64,000 bases of DNA from Candidatus Omnitrophota bacterium (GTDB lineage Bacteria > Omnitrophota > Gorgyraeia > Zapsychrales > Zapsychraceae). Position numbers and translations under genes: made by a program. How positions within the stretch are numbered: the first letter of the stretch is position 1; each line of letters begins with the position of its first letter. The notes under the pieces were generated by a model. The model was not told the DNA's origin, searched no databases, and saw only the letters and a program-made list of their open reading frames with translations. Shown here piece after piece: positions 14,577-39,720 of this stretch. The stretch covers positions 61-64,060 of the forward strand of contig JAGQKV010000002.1 in NCBI GenBank assembly GCA_020429915.1, written 5' to 3'.

Positions 14577-14681
14577 GTGATAAGTGATACGAACAGTGAA
14601 GCGCCTGCTTTACGTCAACGGGCCTTCCTTTTGTGTGGCCTGCCGGACGATATGTCGTAAACTGTTCGTATCACTTATCAC
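14577..14681. promoter_or_regulatory. Perfect 21-bp inverted repeat (gtgataagtgatacgaacagt / actgttcgtatcacttatcac) separated by 63 bp, between valS and the upstream membrane-protein gene
   Basis: Arm 1 at 14577..14597, arm 2 at 14661..14681, exact reverse complements. Arm 2 overlaps the stop codon of gene 14678..16264. A related imperfect IR with GTGAT(C/A)AGTGAT motifs flanks the other end of that gene. Confidence 0.6.
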
Positions 14682-20446: not shown

Positions 20447-21090
20447 ATCCGTTTTTCCACGATATCCAGGAGTTTATCGATCACGCCCTGGCGCGTGTTG
20501 TCATGCGCCAGGATGCGCTCCTTGTCGACCACAAAGCCGAGGTAGTTTCTTTCTTTCAATGTGTTGGCGACCACCAGATCACAATACGCCGCGTCGAACA
20601 AGCCCTTGGCGGCACCGACCGCCACGTCCCCGCTCATGTCGGGTTCGAGCTTGAAACCGACCAGCAGCGAATCCGTGCTGATCTTCCTCAGGGAGCGAAT
20701 CAATTTCGGCAACGGGACCAGGTCGAGCCGGATATCAGTCTGGTCGGACTTCATTTTCTCTTGCAGCGGGTTCCGGATCATATAGTCGCTGACCGCAGCC
20801 GCGTGAAAGATGGCGTCGTAGTGCTTTTTTTCTGCTACCAGTTCCGAGCGGATCAAGGCCATCAGGTCTTCGTAATATTTGAACGGGCGGACCGAGATCC
20901 CCTCGTCGGTCATGCGCCGTTCCACCGGTCCTTCGAAAACGGTGACTGAGGCCCCGCGCCGGCGGGCCTCGCGGGCCAGGCGTTGACCCAGCTCTCCGGT
21001 GGATATGTTGCTGATGACACGCACGGCATCAATCGGGACCCAAGTCGGACCGCAGGTGATCAGAATATTCTTTTGCGCAAGAGTACCCAT
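20443..21090 (-). CDS. Phosphopantothenate--cysteine ligase (CoaB)-like protein
   Basis: ILITCGPTWVPIDAVRVISNISTGELGQRLAREARRRGASVT...AAAVSDY...LVGFKLE matches the stand-alone CoaB/DFP C-terminal domain. Confidence 0.65.
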   Translation of the reverse strand: MGTLAQKNILITCGPTWVPIDAVRVISNISTGELGQRLAREARRRGASVTVFEGPVERRMTDEGISVRPFKYYEDLMALIRSELVAEKKHYDAIFHAAAVSDYMIRNPLQEKMKSDQTDIRLDLVPLPKLIRSLRKISTDSLLVGFKLEPDMSGDVAVGAAKGLFDAAYCDLVVANTLKERNYLGFVVDKERILAHDNTRQGVIDKLLDIVEKRI

Positions 21091-22180: not shown

Positions 22181-23505
22181 TATAGCTTCTCCATTCTGAT
22201 CGCCACCGGTTTGTGCCGGACGGTGTCGAGTTTTTGAATTTTCTTAAGGGCGGTGCGTACGACTTTTTCGGTCGTATAATCGGTCAGCATAATGACCGGC
22301 ACGGCCTTGAGCGCCCCGTCATGCTGTTGCTGAGAGACGGAGTTGATACCGATCCCCGCCCGGCCGAGGATGCCCGTCACCTGCGACAAGACTCCCGGCT
22401 CATCCACCGCGTGAATGCGGATGTAAAACTTGGTCTCGATATGGTCGATGCGCCGCGGCCGCAGGGCCTGGTTCTGCGTGAAATGGTTGCAGTACATCGG
22501 ATTGTTGGGCGCGTTGGCGGCGTTGATCAGGTCTGCGATGACGCCGCTGGCGGCCGCCATCTGGCCGGCGCCCTCCCCGGTGAGCATGACCTTGCCCAGC
22601 GGGTCCGCGTCGAGATAAATGGCATTGTACACCCCGTGGACGGCGGCCAGCGGGTGGTCCTTGCTGATCAACGTCGGATGCACGCGCGCCTCCAGACCGC
22701 CTTTGGATTCCTTGGCGATGGCCAGCAGCTTGATGCACAGGTCCAGGCTCTCCGCGTAGGCGATATCAATATGGGAAATATCGGTAATGCCTTCCGTATA
22801 GATCGATTTGACCGGCAGCATGCGCTGAAAGGCCAGAAAGGTCAGGATCGCCAGCTTATGCGTGCTGTCCATCCCGTTGACGTCCAGCGTGGGATCGGCC
22901 TCGGCATAGCCGCGTTTTTGCGCCTCAGCAAGTGCGTCGTCGAACGAGCACAATTTCTTGCTCATTTCGTCCAGGATAAAATTGCAGGTGCCGTTGATAA
23001 TTCCGTAAATGCCGCGATAGGCGTTGCCCGCGATCGTCTCGGACACCGTTTTAATCATCGGAATCCCGGCGCCGACAGCGGATTCGTAATACAAATGCCG
23101 GCCGTGTTGCTGCGCGATTTTAAAAAGCTCCAGCCCGTGATTGGCGATCAGGTCCTTGTTGGCTGTAATGACGTCTTTGCCGTTTCTCAGGGCCTGTTCG
23201 ACGATTTCCTTGGCGGGATGCTTGCCGCCGATCAGTTCGACGACGATATCGATGGCCGGATCATTGACGACATCCTGATACTTCTTGGTCCGTTTGACCG
23301 AACGCAGGCCGTGGATCCGCTTTTTGTCGATGCTGCGGTCGCAGATCGTGCGGATGTTGAACTCGGCATTATAACGTTTCTGAAAGGCGGTGCGGTTGCT
23401 GCGCAGGATCTTGACGACACCCTGGCCGACGGTCCCGTAACCGATCAGCCCGATTTGTAATTTACCGAATGCCTTGTCTTCGATCGCATCCAGCGGGTTA
23501 ATCAT
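22180..23505 (-). CDS. hom: Homoserine dehydrogenase
   Basis: [18 protein letters not shown](P) motif, catalytic domain, C-terminal ACT domain. Confidence 0.9.
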
Positions 23506-23884
23506 GGGTGACTCCGTCCGTGTTTTTCAGATAATCGATGAGTTTACTCAGGACGACCTGGGCTTCGGTGTTCAGTTCGTCGAATTCAAGGCGGGTTTCG
23601 TAGATAAGGTCTTTGGCCTTTTCGTTGCAGCCACGGACAATGCCCTGCAGGACGGTTGCATTGGTCAGAAAAGGCGTATTCAGCTCCACGCCCATACGGG
23701 TGTTGAGCTCAAACGGCTGGGCGGTGACGAAGCACATCCCCCCCTCGCTGATATTCTTCAGTTGGGTGAGCTCCATCCGGTTTTCCGGCGTACGCAGATC
23801 AAAATACCTCAGCAGGAAATGCTTGCGAAAGCGCTTGTGACGTCGGCGTTCATGGTAATCGTCTCGTTCTCTTCTGGGAAGCAT
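23498..23884 (-). CDS. PilZ-domain protein
   Basis: RRHKRF...DISEGG pattern (RxxxR ... D/NxSxxG); 128 aa; AAAGGAG RBS; first gene of the thr operon. Confidence 0.6.
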   Translation of the reverse strand: MLPRRERDDYHERRRHKRFRKHFLLRYFDLRTPENRMELTQLKNISEGGMCFVTAQPFELNTRMGVELNTPFLTNATVLQGIVRGCNEKAKDLIYETRLEFDELNTEAQVVLSKLIDYLKNTDGVTHD

Positions 23885-23969
23885 AGCGGAGTGCTCCTTT
23901 GATTGGGTTAGCGGAACGGATCGGTGCTGACTCTCAAGCCGTTCCCCTATGAGTTGCTATCAGATAAAA

Positions 23970-24043
23970 TCGGAGCGGTGAGATTCGAACTCACGACCCC
24001 AAGTCCCCCAGACTTGTACGCTAACCAGCTGCGCTACGCCCCG
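23970..24043 (-). tRNA. tRNA-Pro (anticodon GGG)
   Basis: Minus strand reads CGGGGCGTAGCGCAGCTGGTTAGCGTACAAGTCTGGGGGACTTGGGGTCGTGAGTTCGAATCTCACCGCTCCGA. Acceptor, D, anticodon (loop CTGGGGG) and T arms (GTTCGAATC) all pair. Confidence 0.85.
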
Positions 24044-24060
24044 ATAAAGTATTTCAAAGA

Positions 24061-24196: not shown

Positions 24197-27100
24197 TTAG
24201 AGCACGCTGGCTAGGGATTGGATGAGTGACGCGCGGGCGTCGGATTCCGGTGATGTGCGGCGGGACAAACGGGCCGTGCCGGCCGGGTCCTGCTGGACGG
24301 AGCGGGTATCCCCGTCGTCATTATCTTCTAAGCCTAACAGAGGTATAAGGTTAGGCAGCGGTGTGATGTTGATGATCACAGGCTGTACGCCGCGGATCTG
24401 GAGCGGATTCACAGGCATGGCGGTGCCTTCCGGGGTGATGAACTCAAAGGCATCCCCGGTGATTTGCAGATTCATGTTTCGAGTGTCAAAGTCGATCCCC
24501 CCGGGTTCTTCGGCTGTGAGCGCTTGGTCGAGCGGAATGACACTGATGCCTGTAGCGGCCAGTTCATCCCACTTTAGATCACCCGCAATCGGATCTGGCG
24601 ACTCAACGTCCACACGGACACTGCCGTTGTGGCGCACAGTTGTGGCAACGTCTTCATCTGTGATGAGATGATGCAAATAGAACGGAACCATATCTTCAAG
24701 TAACTTACGCGCTTCATCTGCGGTCATGGCCTGATCTTTCTTGACGGCGGAGATCTCCACCCGATCGAGCGGGGCGAAGCGCACCCGGGCGATAAAGTCA
24801 CCGTCCCGCTGGTAAAGTCGCGTGGCCTCGGCGATATTCTCTTCAGTAATCCAGTCCAGCGCGCCTACATCGGCCCCGCCTTCGATCATCTTGCCCCCAA
24901 TGAGCGTAAGGACCTTGCTGCGCAGGCGGGTCTTCAGAGGAGTGACAGCGGCGTCCGGCCGGGACGTGGCGGTCATGGCCTGGTCATCCCTGTCGCGATC
25001 GCGATTACGGAAGTTTTGCCAGCGGCGGAACATGCGGTACCCCACCAAACCGGCCAGCGCGGCCGATCCCGCCACCAGCAGGATTCTCTCCGGGTCCCGC
25101 AGGATCTCATCGAGCACGGCCATGTCCGGGGTGGCGTATGACCTGCTGTCGCGGACGACCGAGGGTTCGGCCTGACGTTCGGCGGCGAGGATGGCGCCGT
25201 CCACGATGTAACCGTTGGCGTCGAACGTGACGGTTTCCTCACCGATCGGTACCGACAGATTGCTTTCGGTAGCCACCTGGATGGCCGCGATATTGCGCAT
25301 GATGTGGTCCGCCATGAAGAATTTATCCTTCTTGAAGCGCGCGACAATGGCGTCACGCTTGATCAAGTCTTCGCCGTCGGTGGCGGCATATATCTCGGCC
25401 TTGCGTTGCCCCAAGGCCTTGGCTAGCCGGACCACGGCTTCGGTGGGGGTCATGTCGTATTTCTCGGATAATTCCATGACCATGATGTTATTGCGCCGCG
25501 CGATCTGGGCAATTTCGTCGTAGAGTTCGATTTTGATTTGGTCCAGCGGATCAAGGTACTCGTAATGTTCGCCGATCTTGATGTCGGGGTGATTACTGGA
25601 GGTGATCAAGCCGTAGCCTTGTTGCTCGACGGCATAGTTATCCCAGGACAGCCGCCGGCGCAGGGAAGCAACGGTGTAACCCAGGTCGTCACCGCGATGG
25701 AACAAACGCCCGTTGAGCGGATCGACGTTCGCGCCGATGGTAATTTCTTCGATGTCGGAGGCAACCACGATACCGTTGTGGATGATCACCTGACCGGCCT
25801 CAACGCTATCTTTGTCGGTCACCAGATTTACGACTTCCGTGACTTCGGTGTTGGTCTCCGTCGGGATGACATCGCCGTCGGCGCTGCGTAACGTGATGGT
25901 GCGCAATTCACGGACGGTCAGCTGATGCTTGAGCATCGCCTCTTTGGTGGATCCTTTGACCCCGCCGAAGTTCACGCTCATCCCGCTGACCGCCAGGATG
26001 CCGGCTTCTTTGAGCTCCTGTTCCACGCCGATGAAGGCGTTATTGGACCCTTCGATGATGATAATATCTTCCATCTCCGGTTCGTCCGCGTCCGCCTTGA
26101 GGAGCGACACGCCGGACCAGCCGCGTTCCTCCAAACGGTCCAACGCGTTTCCGAGTGTCAGCGAATAACTGGACCGTGCCGGATCACTGGTCGAATCCAG
26201 CAGATCGCGAATCTTTCGACCGATAATGAGCTCGTCATCGCCTTCATATTCCGCTAAAAAGGCGTTCAGTTCCTCTATCATCTGCTCGGTCACACGGCCT
26301 TCCAGGTTGGCATTTTCCAGGGCGCGGCGGACTGAGACAGGACGCTGCTGGAGGGGCTTTTTGATAAATCCGCCCATCGCCGCCGGAACCAGGAGGTTGA
26401 TGTCGACGGCTTCCGTGTCCAGAATCTGCGCGCCTTTCAGGTGCTGCACTCCCTCCTGTTCGGGCATCCACTGCAGGACATTGCGTTCTCCCGGAGAGAT
26501 GTTGTTAAGGTCTTGCAGTTCCGCTATGGTGAATCCTTCCGGTTTATAAACCACGCCGTTAATGTCTGATATGGCGACAACTCTGATGCCTCCCCGCACC
26601 ATCTTCAGGGCGATCGATCCGCCTACATCCCCGGCACCGACAACGGCGGCGCGCTGCGTCGCGGGATGGATTCCCTTATACTCGAGAATCGTTTTGATAC
26701 TGTGCCACGTCGAATCTCCGGTGACCGCCAGTTCGACGTGGGAGATGGCGCCCACTTTGGCGGATCCGCCGGTCACGGCGCTGCCGATGATCTTGACGAT
26801 TTCATCCTTGAGCTTACGGTTGAAGACGCGCTCGACGACCACACTGCCGTTTTCCTTGCCCTTGGGCAGTTCCAGCAACAGGCGTTTGCGCATGAAGCCG
26901 ATGAGACTGTCGTCAAGGAATTTGCGGCCTGTATCGCGCTCGATTTCGGCCAACGCGCGGCCGTAACTTGACAAGGTCAAGTTGAAGATATCGACGCCGT
27001 GCGCGTGCATGGTACGCACTTCATTCATCAAGTGCATGGTATAGCGGCGGACGATACCCGCGATAATCGTTTCCTGGTTGTCGGAGGACATGCCTACGTC

Positions 27101-30100
27101 CGGCCCCCCGTCATAGACTTCCATGAGGCCGACGTCCACCATGGCCCGCGCCCAGGCGCGCAGCAAATCGTCCTTCAGTGACGTTGCGTCCTGATTCACC
27201 CCGAAGTACGTCTTGGCGCCGGCATAACCGATACCGGCCAGGACGTTCTTGGAATATTGTGAAACCGAGAGGTTGTTCAAATCTTCATACGCGCCTTTCA
27301 TGATATCGTGCGCCACTTCGTCGATATTTCGCTTTTGCGGATCGTTCGCACGGGCCACCGGCTCGGCGTAACGGATGCCCCCCTTGGTGTGATCGGCTTC
27401 GCTGAGATCGACGAGCTGGGTAATCGCGTAGAAACGGTCGGGCAGATAGATGAAGACGATTTCCTTTTTGTTTTCAAAACCGGTTAGCGGGACCCCCTTA
27501 AAACGGATGGCGATCGCCTCGCGGCTGCCGCCGCTGGTTTCTTCCCGCTTCTCCGGTTCGACCACATCAGCGCTGGTGGCGGTGATATTCTTGACGGCGC
27601 GTTCGTACAGGATGGTCAACCACTGCGTCTCCGATCCCGCGAGCAGTTCCTCCAGGGCCTCTTCTTCGCCTTGCGGATTGTAGAGGTAACGGATCATGGC
27701 GGCGGCGATCTGCGGATGCGCCACGAGCTCCTCGATGGCGGCGATGCCGTCGAAGTATTCTCCCCGGTTATGCTTCACTTCGTAGTGCGAGAGTATTTCC
27801 AGGAACGTAGCGGCGCCCAGGAGTATATCCCGGCGGCGCGGTTCCACGTCGGCCAGGACCTGATCGAGTCCGGCACGGTTGGTTTTCTGATCGCGTTGAC
27901 TGTTGAGGTAACGCAGCGCCTCGGGACGTGTCTTGCGCTTTTGCGTATCGGCAGCGCCCAGCACCTGTTCCTCAATAGATGCCCCGGTTGCGACGGGAGT
28001 CGTCATGGCCGCGTCACTGGTTTTGAGTCGTTTGTCGAGTCCGATAAAGTTTTGAGCCTGTAAAGCGCGGCTCTCCTGTTCACGCAGACTGGCCTCTGCC
28101 ATACGGGCAGTTTTCAGGCTGGAGTCGAAGGACCCGGACAGCGCCTCACGCATGCGCACCGCGGCCAAAACGTCGTCGGAATCGGTTGCCGTCCTTTGTT
28201 CCAAGCGTCCCTCGGCGTTAAACACGTAGGTGTCCTTGCCTACCTTGATGGACAAGTCGCTGGCGGAAACCAGACGTTTGATGGCGATCTTGCGGGCGAC
28301 GTTCAGCGGGAAGAAGAATCCGTCTGTCTCGAATTTATCCACAATCCGTTGAATAGCTTCTTCGACCCGTTCGTCGTCCGAAGTGTCCAGTTCGCGTTTC
28401 TTGGCGGCGATCATCTTGGTAACCTTGCGAACGGCCTGTGACGGCATCATCTTCAGCTCCAACTTCTCTGCGTCGGCGCCATTGCGGGCCAATTCCATGA
28501 CCATCGTGTTCATGCGTTTGGCGATCCCCTTGATATCCTGGTACGCGGTGACACGGATTTCCTGGACCGGATCAATAAACACGGCTGAGTTGCCCTGCCT
28601 GAGGTCGGGGTGATTGCTGGCGATGATTTTCCCCTGGCTGTCGAGTTTCACCACGAAGTTGTCCCAAATCAGGGTCTTCACCTGATCGCGATGACGGTAA
28701 GGTAGTTGAATGCCTTGACTCGTCAGGCGCCCCTCGAACAAATCCAGGTTTGTCCCGGCGAGGATATCGGCGACCGTGGAGTGTATGACGCGGCCGTCCT
28801 GCATGACAATTTCCCCGAGGACTTCACTGCCCGTGTAATTGGTGACCGTGAAGCGATCATTGACGCGAATGGCCGGGCTGGTGACCACATCGGTCCCTTC
28901 CGAACGAACGATGATCCGTTGCAGCTGTTCGGTGGTGAACCGATGTTTAATGTAGTCCTCCAAATAAGAGCCGTAGGCCCCGCCGAATCCGATGCTGGTG
29001 GCGCTGAACGCCAGGATTCCCTTGCGATGCAGTGTCCGTTCGTAACCGTTGATCGAGTTGAATCCGCCTTCGATATAGATCAGCGGATCGCGGTCCGGAT
29101 CGTCATCCAAGCTGCGCAGCCGGTCGATGGCGCCTTCATCCAGCTTATGTCCCGGTGCCATCGAAATCAGGATGTCCAGGTCGATCATGTCTTTGTCGCC
29201 CAGCGACCCCAAGGGAAGGTGGCGGACGCCTGTGCTTTCCGCCGGCATCCATTTCAGGACGTTTCTTTCGTTCAGGGCGATATTGTCCAGCCGTTGCAAG
29301 TCCCGGACGCTGAAGCCTTCCTTTTTATAGACCGTTCCGTTGATGTCTTCGATCGCCACAACCTGGTACCCCATGCGGGTGAGCATGAGCGCCAGCGATC
29401 CGCCGGTCGTGGCCCCGCGGATACCGATCTTGCGGCTGCGCAAATCGCGGTCCGGCAGGTATTCGTCGATCGCCTCGATGCTCATGGCCGCACTGAATGC
29501 TGTCAGCGACCATTCCTTCAGCGCGTTGAACTCGGTGTCGGTCAGACGTCCCGTGGCCGCCGATCCGATCGTCCGCGCGATCTCCGACTCGAGTCGCGAA
29601 TTGAAGAGTTTGACCAGCGACGTCCCTCCGTTTTGCTGACCCAGATGCATGGAGGCGACCACCCGTTGCCGTAACGAATCCATCAGCGGGTCATGCAGGA
29701 AACGCCTCGGTGTTTCGGCGCCGTCCTCGAGTTCAGCCAGCAACATCCCGTACTGCGATGTGGACTTGATTTTGGACAGGTCCTCTCCGATGGACGGAAT
29801 GGTTTTCATCAGTTCCAATTCATTCCGCAGGTGATCCCGATAACGGGTGCCGATCGCCTGGGCCAGCGTATCTTGATCCTTGGCCGTCATACCGGATTCG
29901 GTCCCGATCACATAACGGGAGGCCACTCCGGCATCCACGTAAGATCTCGCCAGTGATTTGAGCAGGACGGTTTTGATATTCTTTGAGTCCGGGAAGACCG
30001 ACATTACCGTTTTGGCCCCGGAGAACGGTGTTTGGGTAATGGTGTTGCGGGCGAACTTCGAACGGGAAATCAGGTCAACCTCGGCAAAGGTGTTTTGGAA

Positions 30101-33100
30101 ATGATCGTAGGCGACCTGGTCTTCCGGTATCAGCCGTCCTCTTTCATCCCGGCGCTTGAGGACCTTGTAACGGATGCCGCCCTGTGCCAGGGATCCGGTC
30201 CCGTTCGGCCGGTCAACAATTTGTGTGAGGGCATAGAAGTATCCGGGACGGTACGAGAAGACGTAGTCCACCACCCGCGGGTCGTCGGTCAGGGCGCGGC
30301 CGCTGATGACCAGGGTCACGGGATCATAATCCTTGCGCATGGCCGTGTAGATATTGGAAGATTTAACATGACGGACCGCGTTGTTAAAGACTTTGTTCAG
30401 CCAGGCCGTACCGGAATGTTCGATCATCTCCTGGACGTTTTCCGCAGAGGTCTCCCCGGCGAAGTAACGGTCGAAGGCGGCCACGATCTCAGGATTATCC
30501 GCCAACTCCTGGCGGGCGGCGATGCCGTCGAATTCAAAATCATCCGCGGCAGCGGCGTAAAGTTCCAGGAATTGAGTCGCCGCCAACAGGGCGTCTTTAA
30601 CCGCGGGGCTGATCTGTTCATCCGGGATGGCATTGAGACCCGAGCGGTAGTTCCGCTGGCGACGGATGTCGGACAGGAACACCTTTTCCGGCTGGCTCAA
30701 TTCGCGGCTGGCGCGGATCATGTCCGGGATATCCAAATCCGCCGCGGCAAACTCTTCTCTTAAGTATTCATGAGTATATTCGGTGGCGGCCTCCTGATCC
30801 GCGGTTTGCCGGCCGATCCGCGAGATGAGTTCGTGGGTCAGTAGTAATCGCCGCAGCTTGTCGACTTTGTCGCTGAAAAAGTACGGGTGAAGTATCACTA
30901 CTTTCTTCCCGACGCTCGAATGGGCCGCGAACGGATTTCCGTTTTCGGCCACGGGCAGCTTGTAGACGATGTCGTCTCTGTTTTGAGTGGTGGTGTCGGT
31001 CGTGATGACGATACGGAAGTCCCGCAACCGTTCGAGTACGACCGGATCGGTTTCGGGGCGTTTCAGGAGGCGCTCGATTTCGTCAATGAGGACCCCCGCG
31101 TATTCCGCATAGCGACCGTTATCGTCCGTATCAATCTGGACTTCCCCGTCGATGATCTGGACCCGCATTTCGACGGGCGACTCGAGTTTCAAAACCTGTT
31201 CGGTTAAGGGCACCGTTAAGTCGGCGAACGTGGCCATATCGCTGTGGTTGTCGATCCGGCCGAGGACAGCGCTGTCCTGTGCGACCGGCAGGCCCCCGCT
31301 AAGGGCGGCCTTGCGCAGCGGCACTTTTCCTTTTTCCAGAGCGTCAAGATATTCCACGGCGCGCGTCAGGGTTTCGTCGATATGGATCATTAATTCCGTT
31401 AAGCGGTCCGCATCCGCGGGCAGTAATCCCCGTAGCAAAAAGGCGCGGTCCTGGATCTGGTGATAGTCAACGACCAGGTCTTCGACGGTGCGTTGGGCGG
31501 CCTGCGGAGCATACGGTCCGAACTTGAAGGCGTCGAGAAAACGCTGATTCACGAAGCTGTACAAAGTCTGGGCCTCGCGCCAATTCGCCGGTTCTCCCTG
31601 GTTTGCCGCGGCAATGGCGGTCCAGTGTTCCAGGTCCTGTTGTTTGACCTGGATCATCCGGCGCAGTTCTTCGGCCGGCGCTGTGGACACCCAGCGGATC
31701 ATTTCCAAGGTGGCGTCGGCCCCGTCCTTCAGGCTTTTCAGGCGCTGGATCAGGGTTTGCGGGACTTCGTTGCCAACGGCGATCCGTCGGTTGATGTCAC
31801 CCGAAATTTCCGCCAGCTGCCGGTCAAAGTCGATTTCAAATTTCCGGAGGGCCGACTCCCGGACCTCCTGCGCCCGGGCATTCGAAAAGAAATCCAGGGG
31901 ATCGTACATCAGGAAGTAAATCACAGCGCCCAGGCCCGTCAGGCCCAGACCGAGGCGGAACACGTCGCGCCGGTTCAGCATGGCCATATCCTTGGAGACC
32001 GAATAGTCGGTGAAGGTGATCTCGCGGATCACCTCCGCATCAAAATAGCCGGCTCCCGTAAAGATGGCGGACGGTTGCAGATCATCGTCCACCCGTTCGA
32101 AAATTGTTCGTACGGGATTTTGCGGATCGTCCCGGGTCACGATCTCCAGCGGAGTTCCCCGGTTGATCAGTCGGCCGTCCGGGCGGGTGCCGCGCTGGAA
32201 ATTGACAAAGTCGGCCAGCGACGGAAAGCGCATCTTGACGGCAATGACCATACCGTTGACCGTGACGTATTCCCTGACGTACGGCGTGTACAGGAAGTTG
32301 AACCGGATCTCGGCGAGAGCGGCGGCGATCTCTTCGGTGTCCATGTCCGTACTCGGACCGACGCGTTCGGCAAAGAGACGCCAGTCTATTGAGGAACTGA
32401 TGATATGAAACAGGCTGCGCATCAGACCGATCGGATAGTCCAGGGTGTATCCGTCCGGAGAGGCGTTGAGTGAGAGTACGACGTCCCTGGTCAGGGACTC
32501 CGGCAGCATGGCCACAAAGGTATGTTCGGTCTCAAAGATATCGCGGGTAATCGCCGCGGGATCGTAGGGCTGCCGGTGACGTGTTAATGTTTGGCGCAAG
32601 GCGTTTGAGATTTGAGCCCGGATGCGTTGGTCCAGCTGCATGTCGTCGGCCAGGACCTCCCAGCGGATAACAGCTTGTTCGATACTCAGGGCCTCGCCCA
32701 GGGCCGTGGCGACGACCTCTTCCTCGACCCCCAGACGTTCGGCGATGGTGTCCACCGCATCAATGAGCACGGCTGCGTCGGCCTCCACATAGGGTAACGT
32801 GAAGAGTTCGGCCACGTTCTGATCGAGGTAGCCCAGTGTCTTCCCGGTTGCGTCTTCGGAGACAATGGCAACGATCCGTCCGGCAAAATCCGTTTCGTCC
32901 GCGAAAAACCACGTCAGTAATTTATCGCTGACAGCGGCCCGGTCGCTCAGGTCCGTCCGTTCGGGAAAGAAGCGGCTTAAATATTCCAGGACGCGCTGGG
33001 AATCGGTAACCGTTGTCGGCTGGAGTTCTTCCAGTGGAACCGGCGTGTTTTGGGCCAGTGCCGTTTCGATTTGTTCGCGTAGCCGGCGTAAACGCATGCG

Positions 33101-36100
33101 GTGCGCGCGGTCCGGTCCGTCGGCAAGCAGGGCTGCGTCATCGGTATAACGGGATAGATACGCCAGATTGTCGCCTTGCAGGATGAGCCGTAGCGCGGAA
33201 AACTCGTCTACGATGTAGCGGACCAGCAGATCGGCTGTTGTGTGGCGCCGCAGATACAGCTGCTCGAGCAACTGGCCGATGGGACTCGACCGCAAGGCGC
33301 GCGCCTCGGGTGCGTCCGGCAACTCATCGATATCATTCAGCAATGGTAACGCGTTGAGCAACGGCGCCAAAAGTTGATAAAATTCACGCGCCTCGTCACG
33401 GGATAATTCGACATGATACTCCTGCGGGTCGTCCCGCAGAATCCCGATTACATCGTCAATATTGGTCCCGTCGAATTGTAGCAATGCCCTGGCCAAACGG
33501 CGTTGGTCGTTGTTAAACAGAAGATAGCGGATCCGGTTTTCCAGTGATTCGCGTGCCCGGCGGATCACCACGTCCTGCATTCCCTGCATGAATTCTCCTT
33601 GCGGGCTCATTCCGATCAGGTCGCGGTATTGCTGCAGTGCCAGACCGACTTTCCGGACAGCCAGCACATCGAGCGGATGGCCGTAGATCAGGTTCGAGAG
33701 GATTGCGTCTCTGACGATAGCCAGGCTCGGCTCGCTGAGCTTCAGCCGGGGATCATTCAATCCCCGTGCCCATGCTAAATTCTCGAGGAATTTTTCAACA
33801 TCCGGGATTTCCCTTTGCTCCATCCAGGCCTGAAGATCATCGTCTTTGGCCAACAGGGCGGTGTCCGCCTGGACGCGGATATCAGCATTGTCCAGGCTGG
33901 TAGTAAGAGTGCGGCTTAAGGAAGCCAGCACGGCCCTGTCCGCCGCGGATCCGGCAAGCAATTCGCGGGGCAGGTCCGTGGAAATGGTCGCCAGCCATGT
34001 CTCGAGCATCCCGCGGGCGCGCCGCACATAGGCGCGCAGTTCTTTTTCACCGGTTGCCTCCGCAGGGACTTCCAGATACATTCCGGATATGACCTTATCG
34101 TCGACCAGCCACAGGTAAGGCGCCTCGGCCCGCGGCAGGATTGTTGATTCTGACAGGCGGAACAACGGCGCCAGGGCGAACTGGTCGGCCAGGTAGCGCT
34201 GCACCTGCCGGGTCAGGCCGATCTGCCGTCGGTCGATGACTTCGGGCCCGACCGACCACAGCCGGATAGCCGAGGTTTCGATCTCTTCGCCTTGATTGTC
34301 CATGAACACGCCCTTCTCAACCACAGCGTCGATTCCTTCATTATCAATACGGCTGAGGGTTTCGTTCATGGATTGAATGCCGAACAAGAGCCGGATGCGG
34401 TCCGTCGCCGACAGCATGGCCGCGTCATTGCCTCCGTCGAATTCGGGTTCGTCCAACGGATTCAGCTCGGGCGCGCCGGCCGGTTTCCAGGTGATGGATA
34501 CCCGGTTCGCCAAGGTAGAGATGCTGACCTCGCCGGGTTGATTGGTCGGGTTCGCCCGTTTCAGTTTTCCTTCGACAAAGGCCAACAGGCCTTCGGGCGT
34601 GCCGGCTGTATCCCAGCGCACCAGCGGCGCGTGGTTCAGGAGGACCAGGACCGGGAGTTTTTCCTCGTATTGCTGATTATAGGTTTCAGCGTAGGTCATC
34701 GCGGCGGTCAGGGCGGCTTGCAACCGGTGTTGTTCAATTACGATCATCGCTTCATCCCGCCGTAGCTCGACGCGACTGTCGTCGGCGATCTGGGTTTGAC
34801 GATAGGCACGGCGCGGGACCGCCTTACCGTTGACCAGAACGACGGTCCGTTCGATATCCCGGCGTCCGACGCGCAGCAATCCCTCCACCGAGATTCCCGG
34901 CTCGACGTAATACGGTCTTTGATTGCCCTTTTCGTTAGTGATATTCAAGCGGTAGCGGGATTGGTGCTGGGCATCTTCCTTGATATTCCAGACGATTCCG
35001 TACAATTCATCCACGACGTCCTGACCGGCCACGGCCTCCGCTGGCAGGCGGATCAGGATCGCTCGCGCCTCTTTGATGCGACGGGCGGCCCGGATGAGTC
35101 CGGGTTCGGGATTGTCTACGGTAAAATAGTCGTCCTCGAGATCGTTCAGCAGTTGCAGAGCGGCCTCAAATTCCTCGTCATTGATGGCCTGGGTGATTTC
35201 CTCGCTGCGATCGATAATGTCCTGCCGGCGGAATTCAGCGAACAGGCTGGCGGCGCTTTCTTTAAGGTTGGTGGCGATCCGTTCGATATCCGTCAGACGG
35301 TCGTTGAGCCGCGTGATGATCCGTTGAAGATGCAGCTCGGCCCGTTTAAACGCGTCCTGGGCGATCAGCTCGATGACCGGAGTGAAATCGATGGCCGCGG
35401 TCACCTTGGATTCCACGAAACCGCGTTCGGTCCACTTTTGCAACTCCTCCAGTTTTTCGGTAATCACCACGCGGTCGCGCCGGGACAACGTAACGGCCCG
35501 GCCGCGTTCCTGACGCTGCGAAGCGCTCTTGAGTTTCTTGGCGTAGTAATCCAGATCGGTTTTGTTTTTCAGAATGACCATATACTCGGCCAGCTCGGAG
35601 GCGATTTTTCGAATCTGGCCTTCAAAGGCCTTGCGCCGGCTGCGGTAGCGGACATCGTCCCATACCATCAGCTTCGGCGATTGAATGCGCTCGGTCAACT
35701 CTGTGACACGGTCCTTGATGTTATCCTTGAGTTCGCCCTTGGCCAGGGCTTCTCCTTCCGGCAGAGTCGTGATGATATCACGCAAAGCACGCAGATCTGT
35801 CTCAATATCTTTGTAGGTCTCCAAAGTTTTAAAGTATCGCAGCCGGTAGATTCCCAGCAGGAAATTGATCTGTTTTATAGCCGCGTCGATCTCGCCTTTA
35901 TTGGCCAGACGGCGGATCCGGTCGAGACGGGTGTGAACGTTCACCGGACGTTTTTGCCGTACGGTGACCCGCGGTTCGTCTTCTCCGCTTTTGGGTTTTT
36001 CGATATCGATGTCAAAGGTACCCAACCGGTATGTCCGGACCCGGTTGCCGACCCAATCCTGAGTCTCGATCACGCGCCGGAATTTGCGGCCGCGCAGGCG

Positions 36101-39100
36101 CTGGATGCGGTATTCCAATTCAATCTCGAGGGCGCTGGCGCTGTTGATGGCCCCCTCCAGGGCGTTCATGGCCGGCGTCGGATGGCGGATGCCGTCGCGG
36201 GATTGGCCGGTTTGCAGCAGTCCGGCCACCATCAGCTGTGTCTTGATCATCAGCCGGTTGGTGCGGATCGCCAGCAGGTTGAGCCGCGCCAGCGCTTCGC
36301 GGTCTCCGAGTGCATCGGCGCGGCGTATCTGCGCGGAAATGCGGCGTCGGTCGCGCTTCAGGTCCTTGAGCGCATCGCTGTAAAAATCATATCCTTTCTT
36401 AAGGACGATATTCACCGGCATTTCGTTGAAGAGTTGACGCATATCCAGGATCAGCTGCTGCTCGCGGCGCTCGATTACCGCCAGATCGTCGTCGGTCTCA
36501 GCGTTACGGCGCAGGGCCATGATGGCCTCGGACTCACCGTAAAGCAGACCCAGCCGTTGGCGGATTTCGATGGAGGCCCGGCGTTCATTGTTGCGTTCGT
36601 TCTCTTCCCGTTCGGGTACGAGCCGGTACTCCCGCGGTTTGATCTCCAGGCGGTCGGCGGCGTCCGACAGCATCGCGAGGTCTGTGCTGATCGGCAACCC
36701 TTCAAAGAAATTGGCATGCACATCAATGTAGACGCCGTTCTCGATCACATACATCAGCACCTGTCCGCGCTTTGTCTCCAGATGCTTTGCTACCGATTGG
36801 GTGGCCACAGGCAAGATCGTATCGAGCGGCTGGTCTGCCGGATAACGCCCGACGATGTCGCCGTTTATGTAGACAAGCAATTCACGTTCGTTTTCCCTGG
36901 CGAGTTGATGGGCATCCCGCATGGACGTGCGAAAATCGGTATCCGAGAGCAACAGGGCCTCGTCGACCTGTCCGCGGTTCATTCCGGCCGGAACGACCAC
37001 TGTTGCCTCCGCACCTTCGGTCAATCCGCTGGCGGAAAGTTGGGCCGGCAGGTCCGCGGAGGTATTCAGATAGATGCTGCTGCCGGCCGAATAGATCGTC
37101 AACTTGCCGCGGCGTGAGGCCAGCTCCTTTTGCAGTTGGGTTTTGAGGCCGTCCAGAACGGCGTCCAGGTTTATGCCCGGATCGATGCTGCGCAGCCGTT
37201 CGCCGTCGAGAAACAGATACACTTTGGTCGCCTGCTTTTGCGCGGAGGCAAAGGTCTCCCGCAGGATTGACTCAAAGGCGGCCTCGGGAAATTCAATGGA
37301 TTGTCCGGAAGATAATCCCGGCAAGCGGTGGATGATGATCGGGACGAGACCGGGGTCAGAAGTGACTGAGGTCGCCGCTTCCACGCTGAAGCTGAAATGA
37401 TCGTGCAGGTCCGCGGAGGTGTCCAGATAGATGCTGCCTCCCGCGCGGAACATGGTCAGGTTGCCGGTCCGCCGGCCGAGTTTGGCCTGGGCCACCTCAA
37501 GAGCTTCACTGCGGGCCTGGTCCGGATCGGTCGAATTCGAAAACTGTTTGATGACGTCTCTGTCGAGATAAACGAAGACATCCTGACCGCGTTGGAGAGC
37601 ATCTGCGAAGGCATCCATCAGCATTGCCCCGAAGGCGTCTTTCGGAACGCGGATCGTCCGGTCGATGATCAGGGCGTTGGGGGCCGGGGTGATGCGTATG
37701 ATCTTCCCGTCGAAGCCGACATTGATGTTGCCGACCAGGGCCTCGGCCTTGTCGATGTGCTCCTCGCCGATGAGTCCATGCGCGCTTTGCGGCAGTTCGG
37801 CGGCGATGCGATCCCGCAGCAAGCGGCGATAGGTCGCGACCAGTCGCGACATTTTATGCGCCAGTGCGATCCGTTGCGGGTTCGGCCGGGTTATGCCCGG
37901 TTCCAGAGTCGCGGGATCCCATTCGTCGTAGCCGGTGGCCGTGCGGATAAAGTATTTTCCGGAGCGCCGGGACAGCGGAGCCAACTCTTCCTCGCTTAAC
38001 TCGTCAAGTGGCCGGTCGATTTCCGTGGGGTGCTGGGCGAGCTGCTGTTCGGTCTGGTCGATGGTCTGTGCGTAAAGTCCGAGCAGGATCGCGCGGTGCA
38101 AATGATGTAAGGCTTGGGTGCCGGGGTCGCTGCTCAATCGCAGTAAACGTTTTTCCAGGACATTCAGCTGTCCGGCGACAATCGGAATCGCGTCTTCTCC
38201 GCTGGCCAATAGCCGTCTGATGGCGTTTTGGCGCATACGCGGACTGGCCCACGACAGGCGGTTGAGCAGATGTTCTTCCATCGTGGAAGCGAAAACGGCT
38301 TGGTCGTCCCCTTCATTCTGGCGAAGCCCGGCATAAGTTTGCACCGTGTGATAATTCCTGGTCAATGCCGCCGTACGGAGTCTTTCCGTCATGCCTTCGG
38401 TGATAGACTCAGCGGAGAGCTGAGCCATGTCGACACCGCCCGAGAAATAACGGCGCGGGATGGGGGTGCCGGTATCCGGATCCTGGTCTTCGCGGATGTA
38501 GTCAAAAACTCCCTTTTGCAAGGCCGCCAGGTATTGGTTATAGATCGACTCTTTGACATCCCGGTCTTCAATCTCAATGCCGTCGACCTTGTTGCGGTTG
38601 ACGTATAACCGCCCGAGAATGCTGTCGCGCAGATTTTTTTTGTACCAGGCCGCTAATATCAGAGAATGGAATATTTGCCGCAGCGGGGCAAAGTTGCGGC
38701 CGGAATTAATTTCACGTTCGATTTCGGGAATGAGGATTTCGCGTACGACATCATCCGAGATCCCGGTCAGGACTTCGTCATCCGTCGTCCCGGAGTTCAA
38801 CGCCGCGTGATGGCGCAGGGCCAGATAGTCCTCTTCCAGCATGACCTTCAGATGACTGTCGGCAATAAAGACATTCGGTCCGTTCACATAGATCTGCGCG
38901 CGCTCCGGAATGATCCAGATCTTGTTGAAGGTATTCATCGGGATCTCGGTTGTCCCGAAGCGCTGCAGCGCCTTTTGTTGCACGCGATCCCAGAAGCGGC
39001 GGCCGAGCTCGTCTTCCGGATACATCATCGACGCGCTCAACTGTTTAAGCAGATAGTCCTGGGCGAGCATGTCCCGGCCCATGGCCGTGTGGCTGAGCGG

Positions 39101-39475: not shown

Positions 39476-39720
39476 GTGCTCATTCCCCCTTCCGCAGTTG
39501 GTGTGCGGCAAGTCAAAGGCATAGACGGTATCATTAAGCGGTCCCGGACAGTAATCCGGACCGGAAAAAGAACAAAAAAAATCCCGCTTGGAAATAGACG
39601 GAATCACTAAAGTTGCTCAAATTGTGAGACGAGATTGGGGAATATGGATAGTGGGTGTTGCGTATATATAAGAATATATTAGTGTCACTAGTTTGTCAAA
39701 TATTTATACGGGATTCAACC

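What the first reader, a model, noticed from the sequence alone, without database searches (positions are those of the whole stretch)
25900..30600. Within the giant gene, module 2 keeps canonical catalytic motifs while module 1 looks degenerate
Module 2 (~25900..27810) retains TKGGIRY (the Lys-Gly-Gly of the catalytic KGG(I/L)R(F/Y) motif), GYAGAK (GGAKGG-like) and GGPDVGM (the PAPD(V/M)(G/N)T motif). It also has a clean GxGxxG Rossmann (VVGAGDVGGSIALKMVRGGIRVVAISD) and the EG(A/S)N...GIL..S......GGV...S(Y) C-terminal motif. Module 1 (~28950..30600) is clearly homologous (FDGIAARQELADNPEIVAAFDRYF vs FDGIAAIEELVAHPQIAAAMIRYL; YFYALTQIVD vs FYAITQLVD) but has QGGIRY (Lys lost), SGAK and GTESGMT. 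This is the pattern expected for an active enzyme paired with a regulatory or pseudo-enzyme duplicate.
Basis: partly seen in the sequence, partly recalled or inferred. Interest (0 to 1): 0.6.

Follow-up and report, generated by a model that had tools for sequence, protein, structure and literature searches.

The report
Tandem glutamate-dehydrogenase-like pair, one remodelled
A 5,100-residue protein of an uncultured Omnitrophota bacterium carries two tandem glutamate-dehydrogenase-like modules: the second keeps every catalytic and cofactor residue, and the first keeps the fold but has a fixed, conserved set of active-site replacements, so it looks like an enzyme fused to a stabilised non-catalytic partner.

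Summary
Every quoted motif sits at the stated coordinates inside one minus-strand gene (24197-39607, 5,136 codons; likely start at 39475). The two modules are homologous (34% identity, E 4e-77). Both match Pfam ELFV_dehydrog, and both predicted structures hit only glutamate dehydrogenases (GDH).

Module 2 (M2) keeps the equivalents of C. symbiosum GDH K89, Q110, K113, K125, D165 and S380, plus GxGxxG and EGxN. Module 1 (M1) has K89Q, K113R, residue 164 to T, D165E, a broken GxGxxG and N to F.

The Lys lost in QGGIRY is the substrate-specificity Lys. The catalytic Lys (K125) is kept in both modules (SGAK and AGAK).

M1 is not decaying. Its replacements are identical in the three known orthologous lineages. 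It is conserved at 47-52% against 51-65% for M2, and it is the faster-evolving, derived copy.

The R/T/E trio also arose independently in the second module of another tandem giant protein (P0017). It was found in no other of about 170 sampled domains.

Best reading: M2 is a working amino-acid dehydrogenase and M1 is a cofactor-poor ligand-binding or structural partner, like Thermus GdhA/GdhB but fused. Activity is untested, and a Sec-type signal peptide leaves the cellular location unresolved.

The parts
24197..39607 (-). Giant ORF of 5,136 codons from the first GTG. The likely real start is the ATG at 39475 (M45), giving 5,092 aa. All residue numbers in this report use the 5,136-codon frame: aa p corresponds to nt 39607-3(p-1).
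   Evidence: Searches give the ORF. An identical protein is in public collections on 23 contigs, and the NCBI model MCA9392677.1 (Candidatus Omnitrophota, hypothetical protein) is 5,092 aa. A GGAAGGGGGAA Shine-Dalgarno-like run lies just upstream of ATG 39475, and a TTGACA-17-TAATAT promoter-like site lies at about 39670-39698.
39365..39475 (-). Signal-peptide-like N-terminus (aa 45-81, MIMGLHKWSDIGRNTVVWLVICSFTVSLVAPQAVYAQ). It has basic residues, then a hydrophobic core, then V-Y-A before Q.
   Evidence: Hydropathy scan. The same hydrophobic core followed by (A/V)YAQ/R is seen in P0002, P0003, P0005 and in the consensus of 26 N-domain homologues. That it is cleaved by signal peptidase is inferred from the -3/-1 rule, not tested.
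38276..39364 (-). Phylum-specific N-terminal domain (aa about 82-444), uncharacterised.
   Evidence: It is 63% identical to P0002 and P0003. It has at least 673 homologues at E<=1e-3; nearly all that carry a name are called Candidatus Omnitrophota/Omnitrophica, and some are fused to other domains. It has no Pfam, NCBIfam or PDB sequence match.
28178..30700 (-). Module 1 (aa 2970-3810): a GDH-fold module with a remodelled active site.
   Evidence: Searches give the boundaries. Pfam PF00208 E 3.7e-7. AF2 model pLDDT 76.6. Foldseek top hits are all GDH.
30182..30184 (-). Module 1 Q3142, at the position of C. symbiosum GDH (CsGDH) K89 (gamma-carboxylate specificity Lys).
   Evidence: The position is E in P0002 and Q in P0003.
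30047..30058 (-). Module 1 K3184-F-A-R3187. K sits at the CsGDH Q110 position and R at the K113 position (alpha-carboxylate Lys).
   Evidence: The HMMER alignment to PDB 1v9l also pairs this R with the corresponding Lys.
30011..30013 (-). Module 1 K3199, equivalent to the catalytic Lys (CsGDH K125). It is retained.
   Evidence: This Lys is kept in nearly all sampled ELFV domains (two A/Q exceptions among about 113 environmental domains).
29897..29902 (-). Module 1 T3236-E3237, in place of (G/P)164-D165 of GDH.
   Evidence: IGTESG is conserved in all three module 1 orthologues.
29399..29416 (-). Module 1 GATTGG (aa 3398-3403), in place of the GxGxxG dinucleotide loop. It is one residue shorter and the second Gly is missing.
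   Evidence: P0003 has GAAMGA at this site, so the loop is also variable.
29060..29062 (-). Module 1 F3516, in place of the Asn of the EGxN motif.
25202..27931 (-). Module 2 (aa 3893-4802): a GDH-fold module with a complete catalytic and cofactor residue set.
   Evidence: Pfam PF00208 E 4.7e-21. AF2 model pLDDT 87.4, pTM 0.85. Foldseek gives GDHs at E about 3e-14 and TM (target) 0.55-0.61, and M. smegmatis L-GDH180 at TM (query) 0.42.
27098..27385 (-). Module 2 substrate-site residues: K4075 (K89), Q4117 (Q110), K4120 (K113), K4132 (K125), P4169-D4170 (164-165).
26621..26638 (-). Module 2 GAGDVG (aa 4324-4329), an intact GxGxxG.
   Evidence: The motif is GxGDVG in nearly the whole Omnitrophota family.
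25949..26044 (-). Module 2 N4522 (EGSNN) and S4553 (GGVKGS, the CsGDH S380 position).
26108..26362 (-). Lineage-specific insertion of about 85 aa inside the NAD domain of module 2 (aa 4416-4500).
   Evidence: It is not aligned in P0002 or in module 1, and its pLDDT is 44-58 in the model.
24329..24520 (-). Conserved C-terminal element (aa 5030-5093, GGIDFD...PVIINITPLPNLIPLLGL). It is shared with the roughly 600-aa proteins that carry the N-terminal domain.
   Evidence: The profile of alignment A3 matches both ends of P0001, P0002, P0003 and P0005.
31907..31963 (-). Hydrophobic, transmembrane-like segment (aa 2549-2567) upstream of module 1. It is not conserved in the orthologues.
25028..25084 (-). 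Hydrophobic, transmembrane-like segment (aa 4842-4860) just after module 2.

Best explanation
The finding lies in a single gene of an uncultured Candidatus Omnitrophota bacterium. The protein starts with a Sec-type signal peptide and a phylum-specific N-terminal domain and ends with a matching C-terminal element. In between lie two tandem modules of about 840-910 aa.

Each module is a complete Glu/Leu/Phe/Val-dehydrogenase (ELFV) fold with four additions:
- an N-terminal helical bundle of about 115 aa;
- a 21-aa loop between the K89 and K113 positions;
- a helical insertion of about 100 aa between domain I and the NAD domain;
- a beta-rich insertion of about 115 aa before the C-terminal helices.

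Module 2 keeps all residues that bind glutamate (K89, Q110, K113, S380), carry out catalysis (K125, D165) and bind the dinucleotide (GxGxxG, EGxN). It is most likely an NAD(P)-dependent, glutamate-type amino-acid dehydrogenase.

Module 1 arose from the same ancestor by duplication before the three known lineages split, and then evolved faster. It fixed Q/E at position 89, K-x-x-R in place of Q110-x-x-K113, and T-E in place of (G/P)164-D165. It also has a shortened glycine loop lacking the second Gly, and F in place of the EGxN Asn.

Module 1 keeps the fold, the catalytic Lys and a basic pocket, but probably cannot bind the cofactor or do the canonical chemistry. It most likely serves as a non-catalytic partner of module 2, either ligand-binding or structural, held next to it in cis.

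What is shown: the homology, the fold, the residue states, their conservation, their polarity and their convergence. What is inferred: activity of module 2, inactivity of module 1, and physical pairing or regulation.
For: 1. Homology and fold are established.

2. The residue table comes from two independent alignments (MAFFT, hmmalign). Module 2 of the window, P0002, P0003, P0004 and P0005 all read K/Q/K/K/P/D/G/G/G/N/S. Module 1 of the window, P0002 and P0003 all read (Q/E)/K/R/K/T/E/G/-/G/F/(S/T).

3. The duplication predates the split of the lineages. Window module 1 scores 886 bits against P0002 module 1 but 496 bits against P0002 module 2. The tree agrees.

4. Module 1 is under purifying selection: 52/47/49% identity among orthologues, against 65/51/52% for module 2.

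5. Module 1 is the derived and faster copy. All 16 outgroups are closer to module 2, and all single-module relatives keep K113, D165 and GxGxxG.

6. The change is convergent. P0017 (5,292 aa) has its own tandem pair, 47% identical to each other and only 16-24% identical to the window modules. Its second copy has MTRRIA and VPSTEKG, that is K113R, 164T and D165E.

7. The state is rare. About 113 further ELFV domains from genomes and metagenomes gave KKPD 107 times and RKTE only in the two module 1 orthologues.

8. Relatives of the module are fused to metabolic enzymes. The fullest case is P0009, which carries acetate/butyrate-kinase-like, phosphotransacylase, 4Fe-4S and TPP domains. This argues that the canonical-type module is a working amino-acid dehydrogenase.

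9. There is a precedent. The Thermus thermophilus GDH heterohexamer contains a catalytically inactive, regulatory GdhA alongside GdhB (PMC9570180).
Against: - There are no biochemical data for any member of this family.
- K to R and D to E are conservative changes, and the catalytic Lys is kept. Residual or altered activity in module 1 cannot be excluded. Pseudo-enzymes called from sequence alone sometimes turn out to be active (PMC10211241 abstract).
- The module 1 model is only moderately confident (pLDDT 76.6, built from an 8-sequence alignment). Its low-confidence stretches coincide with the active-site loops, so pocket geometry could not be examined.
- Only three orthologous lineages exist.
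- Topology is a problem. P0003, P0005 and the shorter relatives have a signal-peptide-like N-terminus and no hydrophobic span before the module. The simplest reading places the modules outside the cytoplasm, where NAD(P) is not expected. That would undermine activity of module 2 as well.
- No contact between module 1 and module 2 has been shown.
Confidence: 0.55

Rival explanations
1. Module 1 is an active enzyme with a new specificity or chemistry. On this reading R3187 still binds the alpha-carboxylate, E3237 replaces Asp as the proton shuttle, Q/E at position 89 selects a neutral or basic side chain, and the altered glycine loop accommodates a different cofactor or cofactor pose.
For: The catalytic Lys, the GG-x-R of the first motif, the Ser at the S380 position (Thr in P0003) and a basic pocket are retained. 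Module 1 is under purifying selection. The R/T/E trio is a coordinated change that has recurred, as expected for a functional solution. Position 89 varies with presumed specificity across the family: K, L or A.
Against: Loss of the second Gly of GxGxxG together with a one-residue deletion is hard to reconcile with normal dinucleotide binding. This loop also varies among the module 1 orthologues (TTGG against AMGA). The Asn of EGxN is replaced by Phe. No characterised ELFV enzyme with R113/E165 was found in the PDB sequence searches or among about 170 sampled domains.
Confidence: 0.2
2. Neither module is a working dehydrogenase. Both are GDH-fold scaffolds or ligand-binding units of an exported or surface giant protein. 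The intact motifs of module 2 would then be kept for binding, for example of glutamate-like or nucleotide-like ligands, rather than for turnover.
For: Family members that are complete at the N-terminus, apart from P0015 and P0030, begin with a signal-peptide-like segment. Most have no hydrophobic span before the module. Published giant Omnitrophota proteins are predicted to be largely extracellular and adhesive or degradative (bioRxiv 10.1101/2023.11.21.568195; PMC10066038).
Against: Module 2 conserves the complete catalytic set, including D165, K125 and GxGDVG, across every lineage. Binding alone would not require that. Relatives are fused to cofactor-dependent cytoplasm-type enzymes and even to a REC-HTH regulator, which argues against a purely extracellular scaffold. 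The authors of the giant-gene preprint themselves call the localisation predictions unreliable.
Confidence: 0.2
3. The motif resemblance is spurious, or the giant ORF is an assembly or annotation artefact.
For: Single-sequence matches to the N-terminal Pfam domain PF02812 fall below the gathering score in both modules.
Against: The identical protein was called on 23 independent contigs, and orthologues exist in two other genomes. The PF00208 match is above threshold for both modules. The profile-to-PDB search gives E down to 5e-101, though that profile includes six canonical GDHs. The structure model is high-confidence and Foldseek probability is 1.00.
Confidence: 0.01

Closest known systems
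Small hexameric glutamate dehydrogenases of the ELFV family (e.g. C. symbiosum 1BGV, T. maritima 1B26/2TMG, P. islandicum 1V9L)
   Same: Both have the two-domain fold (substrate domain I plus a Rossmann NAD domain). Module 2 has the same residues at K89, Q110, K113, K125, D165 and S380, plus GxGxxG and EGxN.
   Different: Sequence identity is only about 15-24%. Each module is twice the size, because of an N-terminal helical bundle, a 21-aa loop, a helical insertion of about 100 aa and a beta insertion of about 115 aa. The modules read K-T rather than K-G-G after the catalytic Lys. They are embedded in tandem in a 5,100-aa protein that has a signal peptide.
Thermus thermophilus hetero-hexameric GDH (GdhA regulatory and inactive, GdhB catalytic; PDB 3AOE)
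   Same: An active GDH paralogue is physically combined with a catalytically inactive paralogue that has a regulatory role (PMC9570180). 3AOE chains are among the sequence and fold hits.
   Different: In Thermus these are two separate 420-aa polypeptides that assemble 4:2. Here there are two fused modules on one chain. Whether module 1 is regulatory is untested. Which residues inactivate GdhA was not compared.
Large GDHs (L-GDH180 of Mycobacterium smegmatis, PDB 7A1D/9HV0)
   Same: A GDH catalytic core is flanked by long helical N- and C-terminal extensions. This gives the best whole-module structural coverage (TM normalised to the query 0.42-0.43 over about 1,010 columns).
   Different: There is no Pfam Bac_GDH match, and the sequence signal to 7A1D is marginal (E 0.05). 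The L-GDH180 entries contain one polypeptide type, so no degenerate partner chain; the window protein has a tandem pair.
Tandem active/pseudo-enzyme domains in one chain, such as receptor protein-tyrosine phosphatases with D1 and D2 domains
   Same: The architecture is conceptually the same: a duplicated catalytic domain in tandem, with one copy active and the other a conserved pseudo-enzyme (bioRxiv 10.1101/805119 abstract).
   Different: The fold and chemistry are unrelated. This is an analogy only.
Published Omnitrophota giant proteins ('Archaeovorins', dockerin-type)
   Same: Same phylum. They are very long, poorly annotated ORFs with divergent enzyme-like domains.
   Different: Those proteins exceed 20-30 kb of coding sequence, and the full-length giants of the preprint have numerous transmembrane helices and mostly SecA-DEAD domains. 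This protein is 15 kb, has at most three hydrophobic segments, and shows no SecA, dockerin or discoidin hit. GDH-like domains are not mentioned in either paper.

Membership tests
ELFV amino-acid dehydrogenase superfamily (Pfam PF00208 + PF02812) | Significant match to the NAD-binding domain model PF00208, above the gathering score | tested here: met
   Module 2 scores 76 bits and module 1 scores 30.5 bits, against a cut-off of 23.4.
ELFV amino-acid dehydrogenase superfamily (Pfam PF00208 + PF02812) | Match to the N-terminal (dimerisation/substrate) domain model PF02812, above the gathering score | tested here: not met
   Scores are 16.1 and 12.7 bits against a cut-off of 25.3. Domain I is nevertheless present according to the profile alignment (102 bits for domain I against 2TMG) and the predicted fold.
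ELFV amino-acid dehydrogenase superfamily (Pfam PF00208 + PF02812) | Two-domain GDH fold | tested here: met
   Foldseek against the PDB returns only GDHs and related enzymes as top hits, with probability 1.00, for both models.
Catalytically competent GDH (C. symbiosum numbering) | Catalytic Lys (K125) in the G-G-x-K motif | tested here: met
   K4132 in module 2 and K3199 in module 1. This Lys is kept in nearly all sampled ELFV domains.
Catalytically competent GDH (C. symbiosum numbering) | K113 (alpha-carboxylate) and D165 (proton transfer) | tested here: inconclusive
   Met in module 2 (K4120, D4170). Not met in module 1 (R3187, E3237). Residue roles are taken from bioRxiv 10.1101/2024.12.26.630402.
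Catalytically competent GDH (C. symbiosum numbering) | Glutamate specificity pair K89 + S380 | tested here: inconclusive
   Met in module 2 (K4075, S4553). In module 1 position 89 is Q3142 (E in P0002) while S3547 is kept.
Catalytically competent GDH (C. symbiosum numbering) | GxGxxG dinucleotide-binding loop | tested here: inconclusive
   Met in module 2 (GAGDVG). Not met in module 1 (GATTGG, one residue shorter, second Gly absent).
Catalytically competent GDH (C. symbiosum numbering) | NAD(P)-dependent oxidative deamination activity | not testable with these tools
   This requires an enzyme assay.
Active/inactive GDH paralogue pair (Thermus GdhA/GdhB type) | Two GDH paralogues physically associated, one lacking activity and modulating the other | tested here: inconclusive
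   Paralogy and covalent linkage are shown. Inactivity of module 1 is inferred from its residues only. Modulation of one module by the other could not be tested.
Large GDH (Bac_GDH, L-GDH115/180) | Sequence membership in the Bac_GDH family | tested here: not met
   No Bac_GDH Pfam hit at E<=1. 7A1D matches only at E 0.05. The structural resemblance is partial (TM normalised to the query 0.42).
Omnitrophota giant proteins of West-Roberts et al. | >30,000 aa, numerous transmembrane helices, SecA-DEAD domain | tested here: not met
   The protein is 5,136 aa, has three hydrophobic segments and has no SecA hit.

The most novel reading that the evidence does not exclude
Omnitrophota may use a phylum-specific export or anchoring cassette, made of a signal peptide, a conserved N-terminal domain of about 370 aa and a C-terminal element of about 70 aa, to place cytoplasm-type metabolic enzymes outside their own cytoplasm. 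The cargo would include glutamate-dehydrogenase-like pairs, phosphoglucose isomerase and NUDIX domains, and the location would be the cell surface or a host or prey cell. Signal-peptide-bearing relatives that lack this cassette carry a whole amino-acid fermentation chain. In that setting the GDH pair would act on host amino-acid pools. The convergently evolved R/T/E partner module would be a cofactor-independent sensor or clamp that gates the active module.
Probability: 0.12. Interest if true: 0.85.

Novelty: new variant of a known kind. Interest (0 to 1): 0.6.

Why it matters
GDH is a textbook enzyme, and the only natural case found here of an active GDH combined with an inactive paralogue is the two-polypeptide Thermus system. 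This finding adds four things:
- The same logic is fused into one chain.
- It sits inside a giant protein of a phylum known only from metagenomes and a few co-cultures.
- The non-canonical copy has a precise three-residue signature (K113R, 164T, D165E).
- That signature has evolved twice independently.

This gives a directly testable hypothesis about how a GDH active site is converted into something else. It also provides a sequence signature for finding such partners. It is one of the few interpretable footholds in the otherwise unannotated giant proteins of Omnitrophota. Finally, it exposes a conflict between a signal peptide and NAD(P)-, Fe-S- and ATP-type domains, which bears on where these proteins act.

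Tried and rejected
- **Word-indexed protein search.** It returned nothing for the 1,833-aa two-module query and nothing for the second module of P0017, although both proteins are in that collection. These are tool misses, not evidence of absence. The exhaustive representative search was used instead.
- **More orthologues.** The scan of GTDB species genomes found only the genomes of P0002 and P0003.
- **Short-term constraint.** The eight cluster-mates of the window protein are essentially identical to it (one substitution in one member) or are fragments, so nothing could be measured. dN/dS across lineages was not attempted because identity is only 47-65% and synonymous sites are presumably saturated.
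- **A third, hidden module.** A family HMM finds exactly two modules in the protein and none elsewhere in the window.
- **An alternative alignment of module 1.** HMMER against 1V9L placed D3244 of module 1 under D165 (2.3 bits). I rejected it. The gap-free alignment of module 1 to module 2, the spacing from K125 (38 residues in both modules) and the unambiguous P0017 pair all place T-E there.
- **The N-terminal domain.** A PDB profile search and Pfam gave nothing.
- **Literature.** No paper in the library links Omnitrophota giant proteins to GDH-like domains, and no tandem GDH pseudo-enzyme was found.

Full report
**What is at the locus**

The interval 25900-30600 lies inside one minus-strand ORF, 24197-39607, of 5,136 codons. 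The identical protein is present in public assemblies on 23 contigs. NCBI lists it as a hypothetical protein of a Candidatus Omnitrophota MAG (MCA9392677.1, 5,092 aa).

The NCBI model starts at M45. That ATG (39475) is preceded by GGAAGGGGGAA and, further upstream, by a TTGACA-17-TAATAT site, so it is the likely start. I keep the 5,136-codon numbering throughout.

The neighbouring genes are ordinary housekeeping genes: hom, thrC-like, coaB, apgM, lysC, a leuA/cimA-like gene, valS, gpsA, a PilZ gene and tRNA-Pro.

**Checking the observation**

All quoted peptides are present at the stated coordinates.
- Module 1 (M1) is aa 2970-3810, nt 28178-30700.
- Module 2 (M2) is aa 3893-4802, nt 25202-27931.
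- They share 34% identity at E 4e-77, plus a second segment at E 4e-49.

A family HMM finds exactly these two copies and no third.

Both modules match Pfam ELFV_dehydrog above threshold (M2 76 bits, M1 30.5 bits, cut-off 23.4). The N-terminal domain model is below threshold for both.

With a 19-sequence alignment, AlphaFold2 gives a confident model of M2 (pLDDT 87.4, pTM 0.85). Its PDB neighbours are all glutamate dehydrogenases (E about 3e-14, target TM 0.55-0.61). The mycobacterial L-GDH180 covers the most of the module (query TM 0.42).

M1, modelled from 8 sequences, gives pLDDT 76.6 and again only GDH neighbours (E about 1e-6). The motif matches are therefore real homology, not chance.

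**Anatomy of a module**

Compared with 410-470-aa GDHs, each module carries these additions:
- an N-terminal helical bundle of about 115 aa;
- a 21-aa loop between the K89 and K113 positions;
- a helical insertion of about 100 aa between the D165 motif and the NAD domain;
- a beta-rich insertion of about 115 aa before the C-terminal helices.

The window's M2 has one more feature: a lineage-specific, low-confidence insertion of about 85 aa (aa 4416-4500).

**Residue mapping**

Residue roles for C. symbiosum GDH were taken from bioRxiv 10.1101/2024.12.26.630402:
- K89 and S380 bind the gamma-carboxylate and set specificity.
- Q110 and K113 face the alpha-carboxylate.
- The carbonyl of residue 164 contacts the amino group.
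- D165 is catalytic.

That K125 in GGxKGG is the catalytic Lys is established knowledge of the family. I did not find it quoted in the text I read.

Two independent alignments, MAFFT and hmmalign to a family profile, agree:

| Position (CsGDH) | M2 | M1 |
|---|---|---|
| K89 | K4075 | Q3142 |
| Q110 | Q4117 | K3184 |
| K113 | K4120 | R3187 |
| K125 | K4132 | K3199 |
| 164 | P4169 | T3236 |
| D165 | D4170 | E3237 |
| GxGxxG | GAGDVG | GATTGG, one residue shorter, second Gly missing |
| EGxN Asn | N4522 | F3516 |
| S380 | S4553 | S3547 |

Spacing supports the mapping: 113 to 125 is 12 residues in both modules, and 125 to 165 is 38 in both.

The Lys lost in QGGIRY is the specificity Lys. The catalytic Lys is present in both SGAK and AGAK.

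**Is module 1 decaying?**

No. An exhaustive HMMER search of 1.84 billion representative proteins found very few relatives: 13 at E<=1e-10.
- Two further proteins carry the same tandem pair: P0002 (4,821 aa) and P0003 (3,302 aa).
- P0004 is an M2-type fragment.
- P0005 has a single M2-like module.

P0002 and P0003 were the only true relatives in a scan of 185,579 species genomes. No further tandem orthologue appeared in the metagenome scan.

Each window module is most similar to its positional counterpart in the other proteins. For M1, that is 886 bits against 496 bits. The duplication therefore predates the split of the lineages.

All three M1 copies carry the same states: Q/E, K-x-x-R, T-E, the shortened loop and F. 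All M2-type copies carry the canonical states.

Among orthologues M1 is 52/47/49% identical and M2 is 65/51/52%. All 16 outgroups are more similar to M2 than to M1. M1 is therefore the derived, faster-evolving copy, and it has since been held by purifying selection.

**Convergence**

P0017 is a 5,292-aa protein from a JGI metagenome. It has its own tandem pair.
- Its first module is canonical: MTRKIA, GGGGKG, VPAPDRG.
- Its second reads MTRRIA, GGGAKG, VPSTEKG. That is K113R, 164T and D165E again, with the catalytic Lys kept and, in this case, GxGxxG intact.

The two P0017 modules are 47% identical to each other and only 16-24% identical to the window's modules. They form their own branch, so this duplication is independent.

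Among about 60 domains from the representative search, and about 113 more from fetched genomic and metagenomic loci, the R/K/T/E combination occurs only in these four partner modules.

A coordinated three-residue change that recurs only in the second copy of tandem pairs argues for a defined alternative state. One possibility is an Arg-Glu pair spanning the site normally filled by the substrate's alpha-carboxylate and amino groups. That specific mechanism is my inference.

**Is module 2 an enzyme?**

The family to which the modules belong is a distinct clade of ELFV domains. Every member that carries a source name is from Candidatus Omnitrophota.

Single-module members keep K113, K125, D165 and GxGxxG. 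They vary at position 89 (K, L or A), the position that sets side-chain specificity.

They are fused to other enzyme domains:
- P0009 (position 89 is Leu) continues into acetate/butyrate-kinase-like, phosphotransacylase, 4Fe-4S and TPP-binding domains. Together these would form a complete chain from amino acid to acyl-phosphate to ATP.
- P0006 carries a Zn-alcohol-dehydrogenase domain.
- P0012 carries a glucosamine-6-P isomerase/6-phosphogluconolactonase-type domain.
- P0041 combines a receiver domain and LuxR HTH domains.

This supports a catalytic role for the canonical-type module. With K89 and S380 present, it points to a glutamate-like substrate for M2. This is inferred from domain co-occurrence, not shown.

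**The unresolved conflict**

The protein, its orthologues and most relatives begin with a signal-peptide-like segment. In the window protein this consists of basic residues, a hydrophobic core and V-Y-A before Q.

P0003, P0005 and the shorter relatives have no hydrophobic span between that segment and the GDH-like module. The window protein has one such span (aa 2549-2567), but it lies in a lineage-specific region.

Read at face value, the modules are exported, and NAD(P) is not expected outside the cytoplasm. Yet relatives carry Fe-S, TPP, kinase and DNA-binding domains.

Three possibilities remain:
- The N-terminal segment is not an export signal.
- The proteins are anchored with their bulk in the cytoplasm.
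- They act in another cell.

Published work on Omnitrophota giant proteins also calls localisation predictions unreliable, and does not mention GDH-like domains.

**Comparison with known systems**

The fold and the residue set of M2 make it a divergent member of the ELFV superfamily.

The best functional precedent for the pair is the Thermus thermophilus GDH heterohexamer. There GdhA is catalytically inactive and regulatory, and GdhB is catalytic (PMC9570180). In the window protein the two paralogues are fused.

Receptor tyrosine phosphatases with D1 and D2 domains are an architectural analogy only.

Two alternative classifications fail:
- Large GDH: there is no Bac_GDH match.
- The published >30,000-aa giant proteins: the size differs, there is no SecA domain, and there are few hydrophobic spans.

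**Verdict**

The most likely reading (0.55) is an active glutamate-type dehydrogenase module fused to a stabilised, cofactor-deficient partner module that binds a ligand or provides an interface.

The alternatives are:
- a neo-functionalised but active M1 (0.2);
- two non-catalytic scaffolds (0.2);
- an artefact (0.01).

The thing is a new variant of a known kind. Its interest lies in the convergent R/T/E signature, the fused enzyme/pseudo-enzyme architecture, and the foothold it gives in Omnitrophota giant proteins.

Noticed in passing
window 38276-39364 (aa 82-444) and 24329-24520 (aa 5030-5093), minus strand: The giant protein's N-terminal domain (about 370 aa) and a C-terminal element (about 70 aa, GGIDxD...PVIxNIxP...LLG) act as conserved 'bookends'. 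The N-terminal domain has at least 673 homologues at about 45-60% identity; nearly all that carry a name are Omnitrophota. Many of these proteins are about 600-640 aa long, and a profile built from them matches both ends of the giant proteins. Others insert different cargo between the ends (phosphoglucose isomerase, NUDIX, ankyrin repeats, an outer-membrane beta-barrel domain). There is no Pfam, NCBIfam or PDB sequence match.
   Followed up: partly
P0017 (JGI 3300009513, Ga0129285_10000633; locus L122 12-15890), aa 695-1344 and 1386-2160: This is an independent tandem pair of GDH-like modules in another 5,292-aa protein. The second copy has the same K113R/164T/D165E state as the window's module 1 but keeps GxGxxG. 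The order is reversed relative to the window protein: canonical copy first, variant second.
   Followed up: partly
P0009 (MBN1354397.1, Candidatus Omnitrophota, 2,232 aa, N-terminally partial): This single polypeptide joins a GDH-like module (Leu at the K89 position) to acetate/butyrate-kinase-like, phosphotransacylase (PTA_PTB), 4Fe-4S dicluster and TPP-binding domains. That is a whole amino-acid fermentation route on one chain. Other relatives fuse the module to a Zn-alcohol dehydrogenase domain (P0006), a glucosamine-6-P isomerase-like domain (P0012), or a receiver domain plus LuxR HTH domains (P0041).
   Followed up: partly
window 39473-39475 and 39480-39700, minus strand: The longest ORF starts at GTG 39607. 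However, an ATG at 39475 (M45) has a GGAAGGGGGAA ribosome-binding-like run just upstream, and a TTGACA-17-TAATAT promoter-like site lies about 200 nt upstream. The NCBI model also starts at M45, so the first 44 codons are probably not translated.
   Followed up: yes
window 36635-37660 (aa 650-991), minus strand: There are three tandem repeats of about 110 aa in the N-terminal half of the giant protein. Copies 1 and 2 are 34% identical (E 5.5e-13). Copies 2 and 3 are 20% identical (E 2.5e-5). They have no family match.
   Followed up: partly
window 34763-34924 (aa about 1562-1615), minus strand: There is a weak, sub-threshold ThiS/beta-grasp-like match inside the giant protein (Pfam E 0.017; TIGR01683 E 0.0024).
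   Followed up: no
window 31907-31963 and 25028-25084, minus strand: Two internal transmembrane-like hydrophobic segments (aa 2549-2567 and 4842-4860) flank the two modules in this protein. They have no counterparts at equivalent positions in P0002 or P0003. The flanking charges give conflicting topology signals.
   Followed up: partly
window 23498-23884 (-) and 23969-24044 (-): A small PilZ-domain gene and a tRNA-Pro(GGG) lie immediately downstream of the giant gene. A DUF1016_N (nuclease-like) gene lies on the opposite strand immediately upstream (about 39783-40859).
   Followed up: no
window 14678-16264 (-): A 528-aa ORF sits among the housekeeping genes and has no Pfam or NCBIfam match.
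   Followed up: no
window 20443-21090 (-): A stand-alone 215-aa protein matches only the C-terminal (CoaB) domain of the DFP family. This suggests a split coaBC.
   Followed up: no
tool behaviour: The word-indexed protein search failed to return P0001 and P0017 when queried with parts of those same proteins, although both are cluster representatives in that collection. 'No hits' from that tool should therefore not be read as absence.
   Followed up: partly
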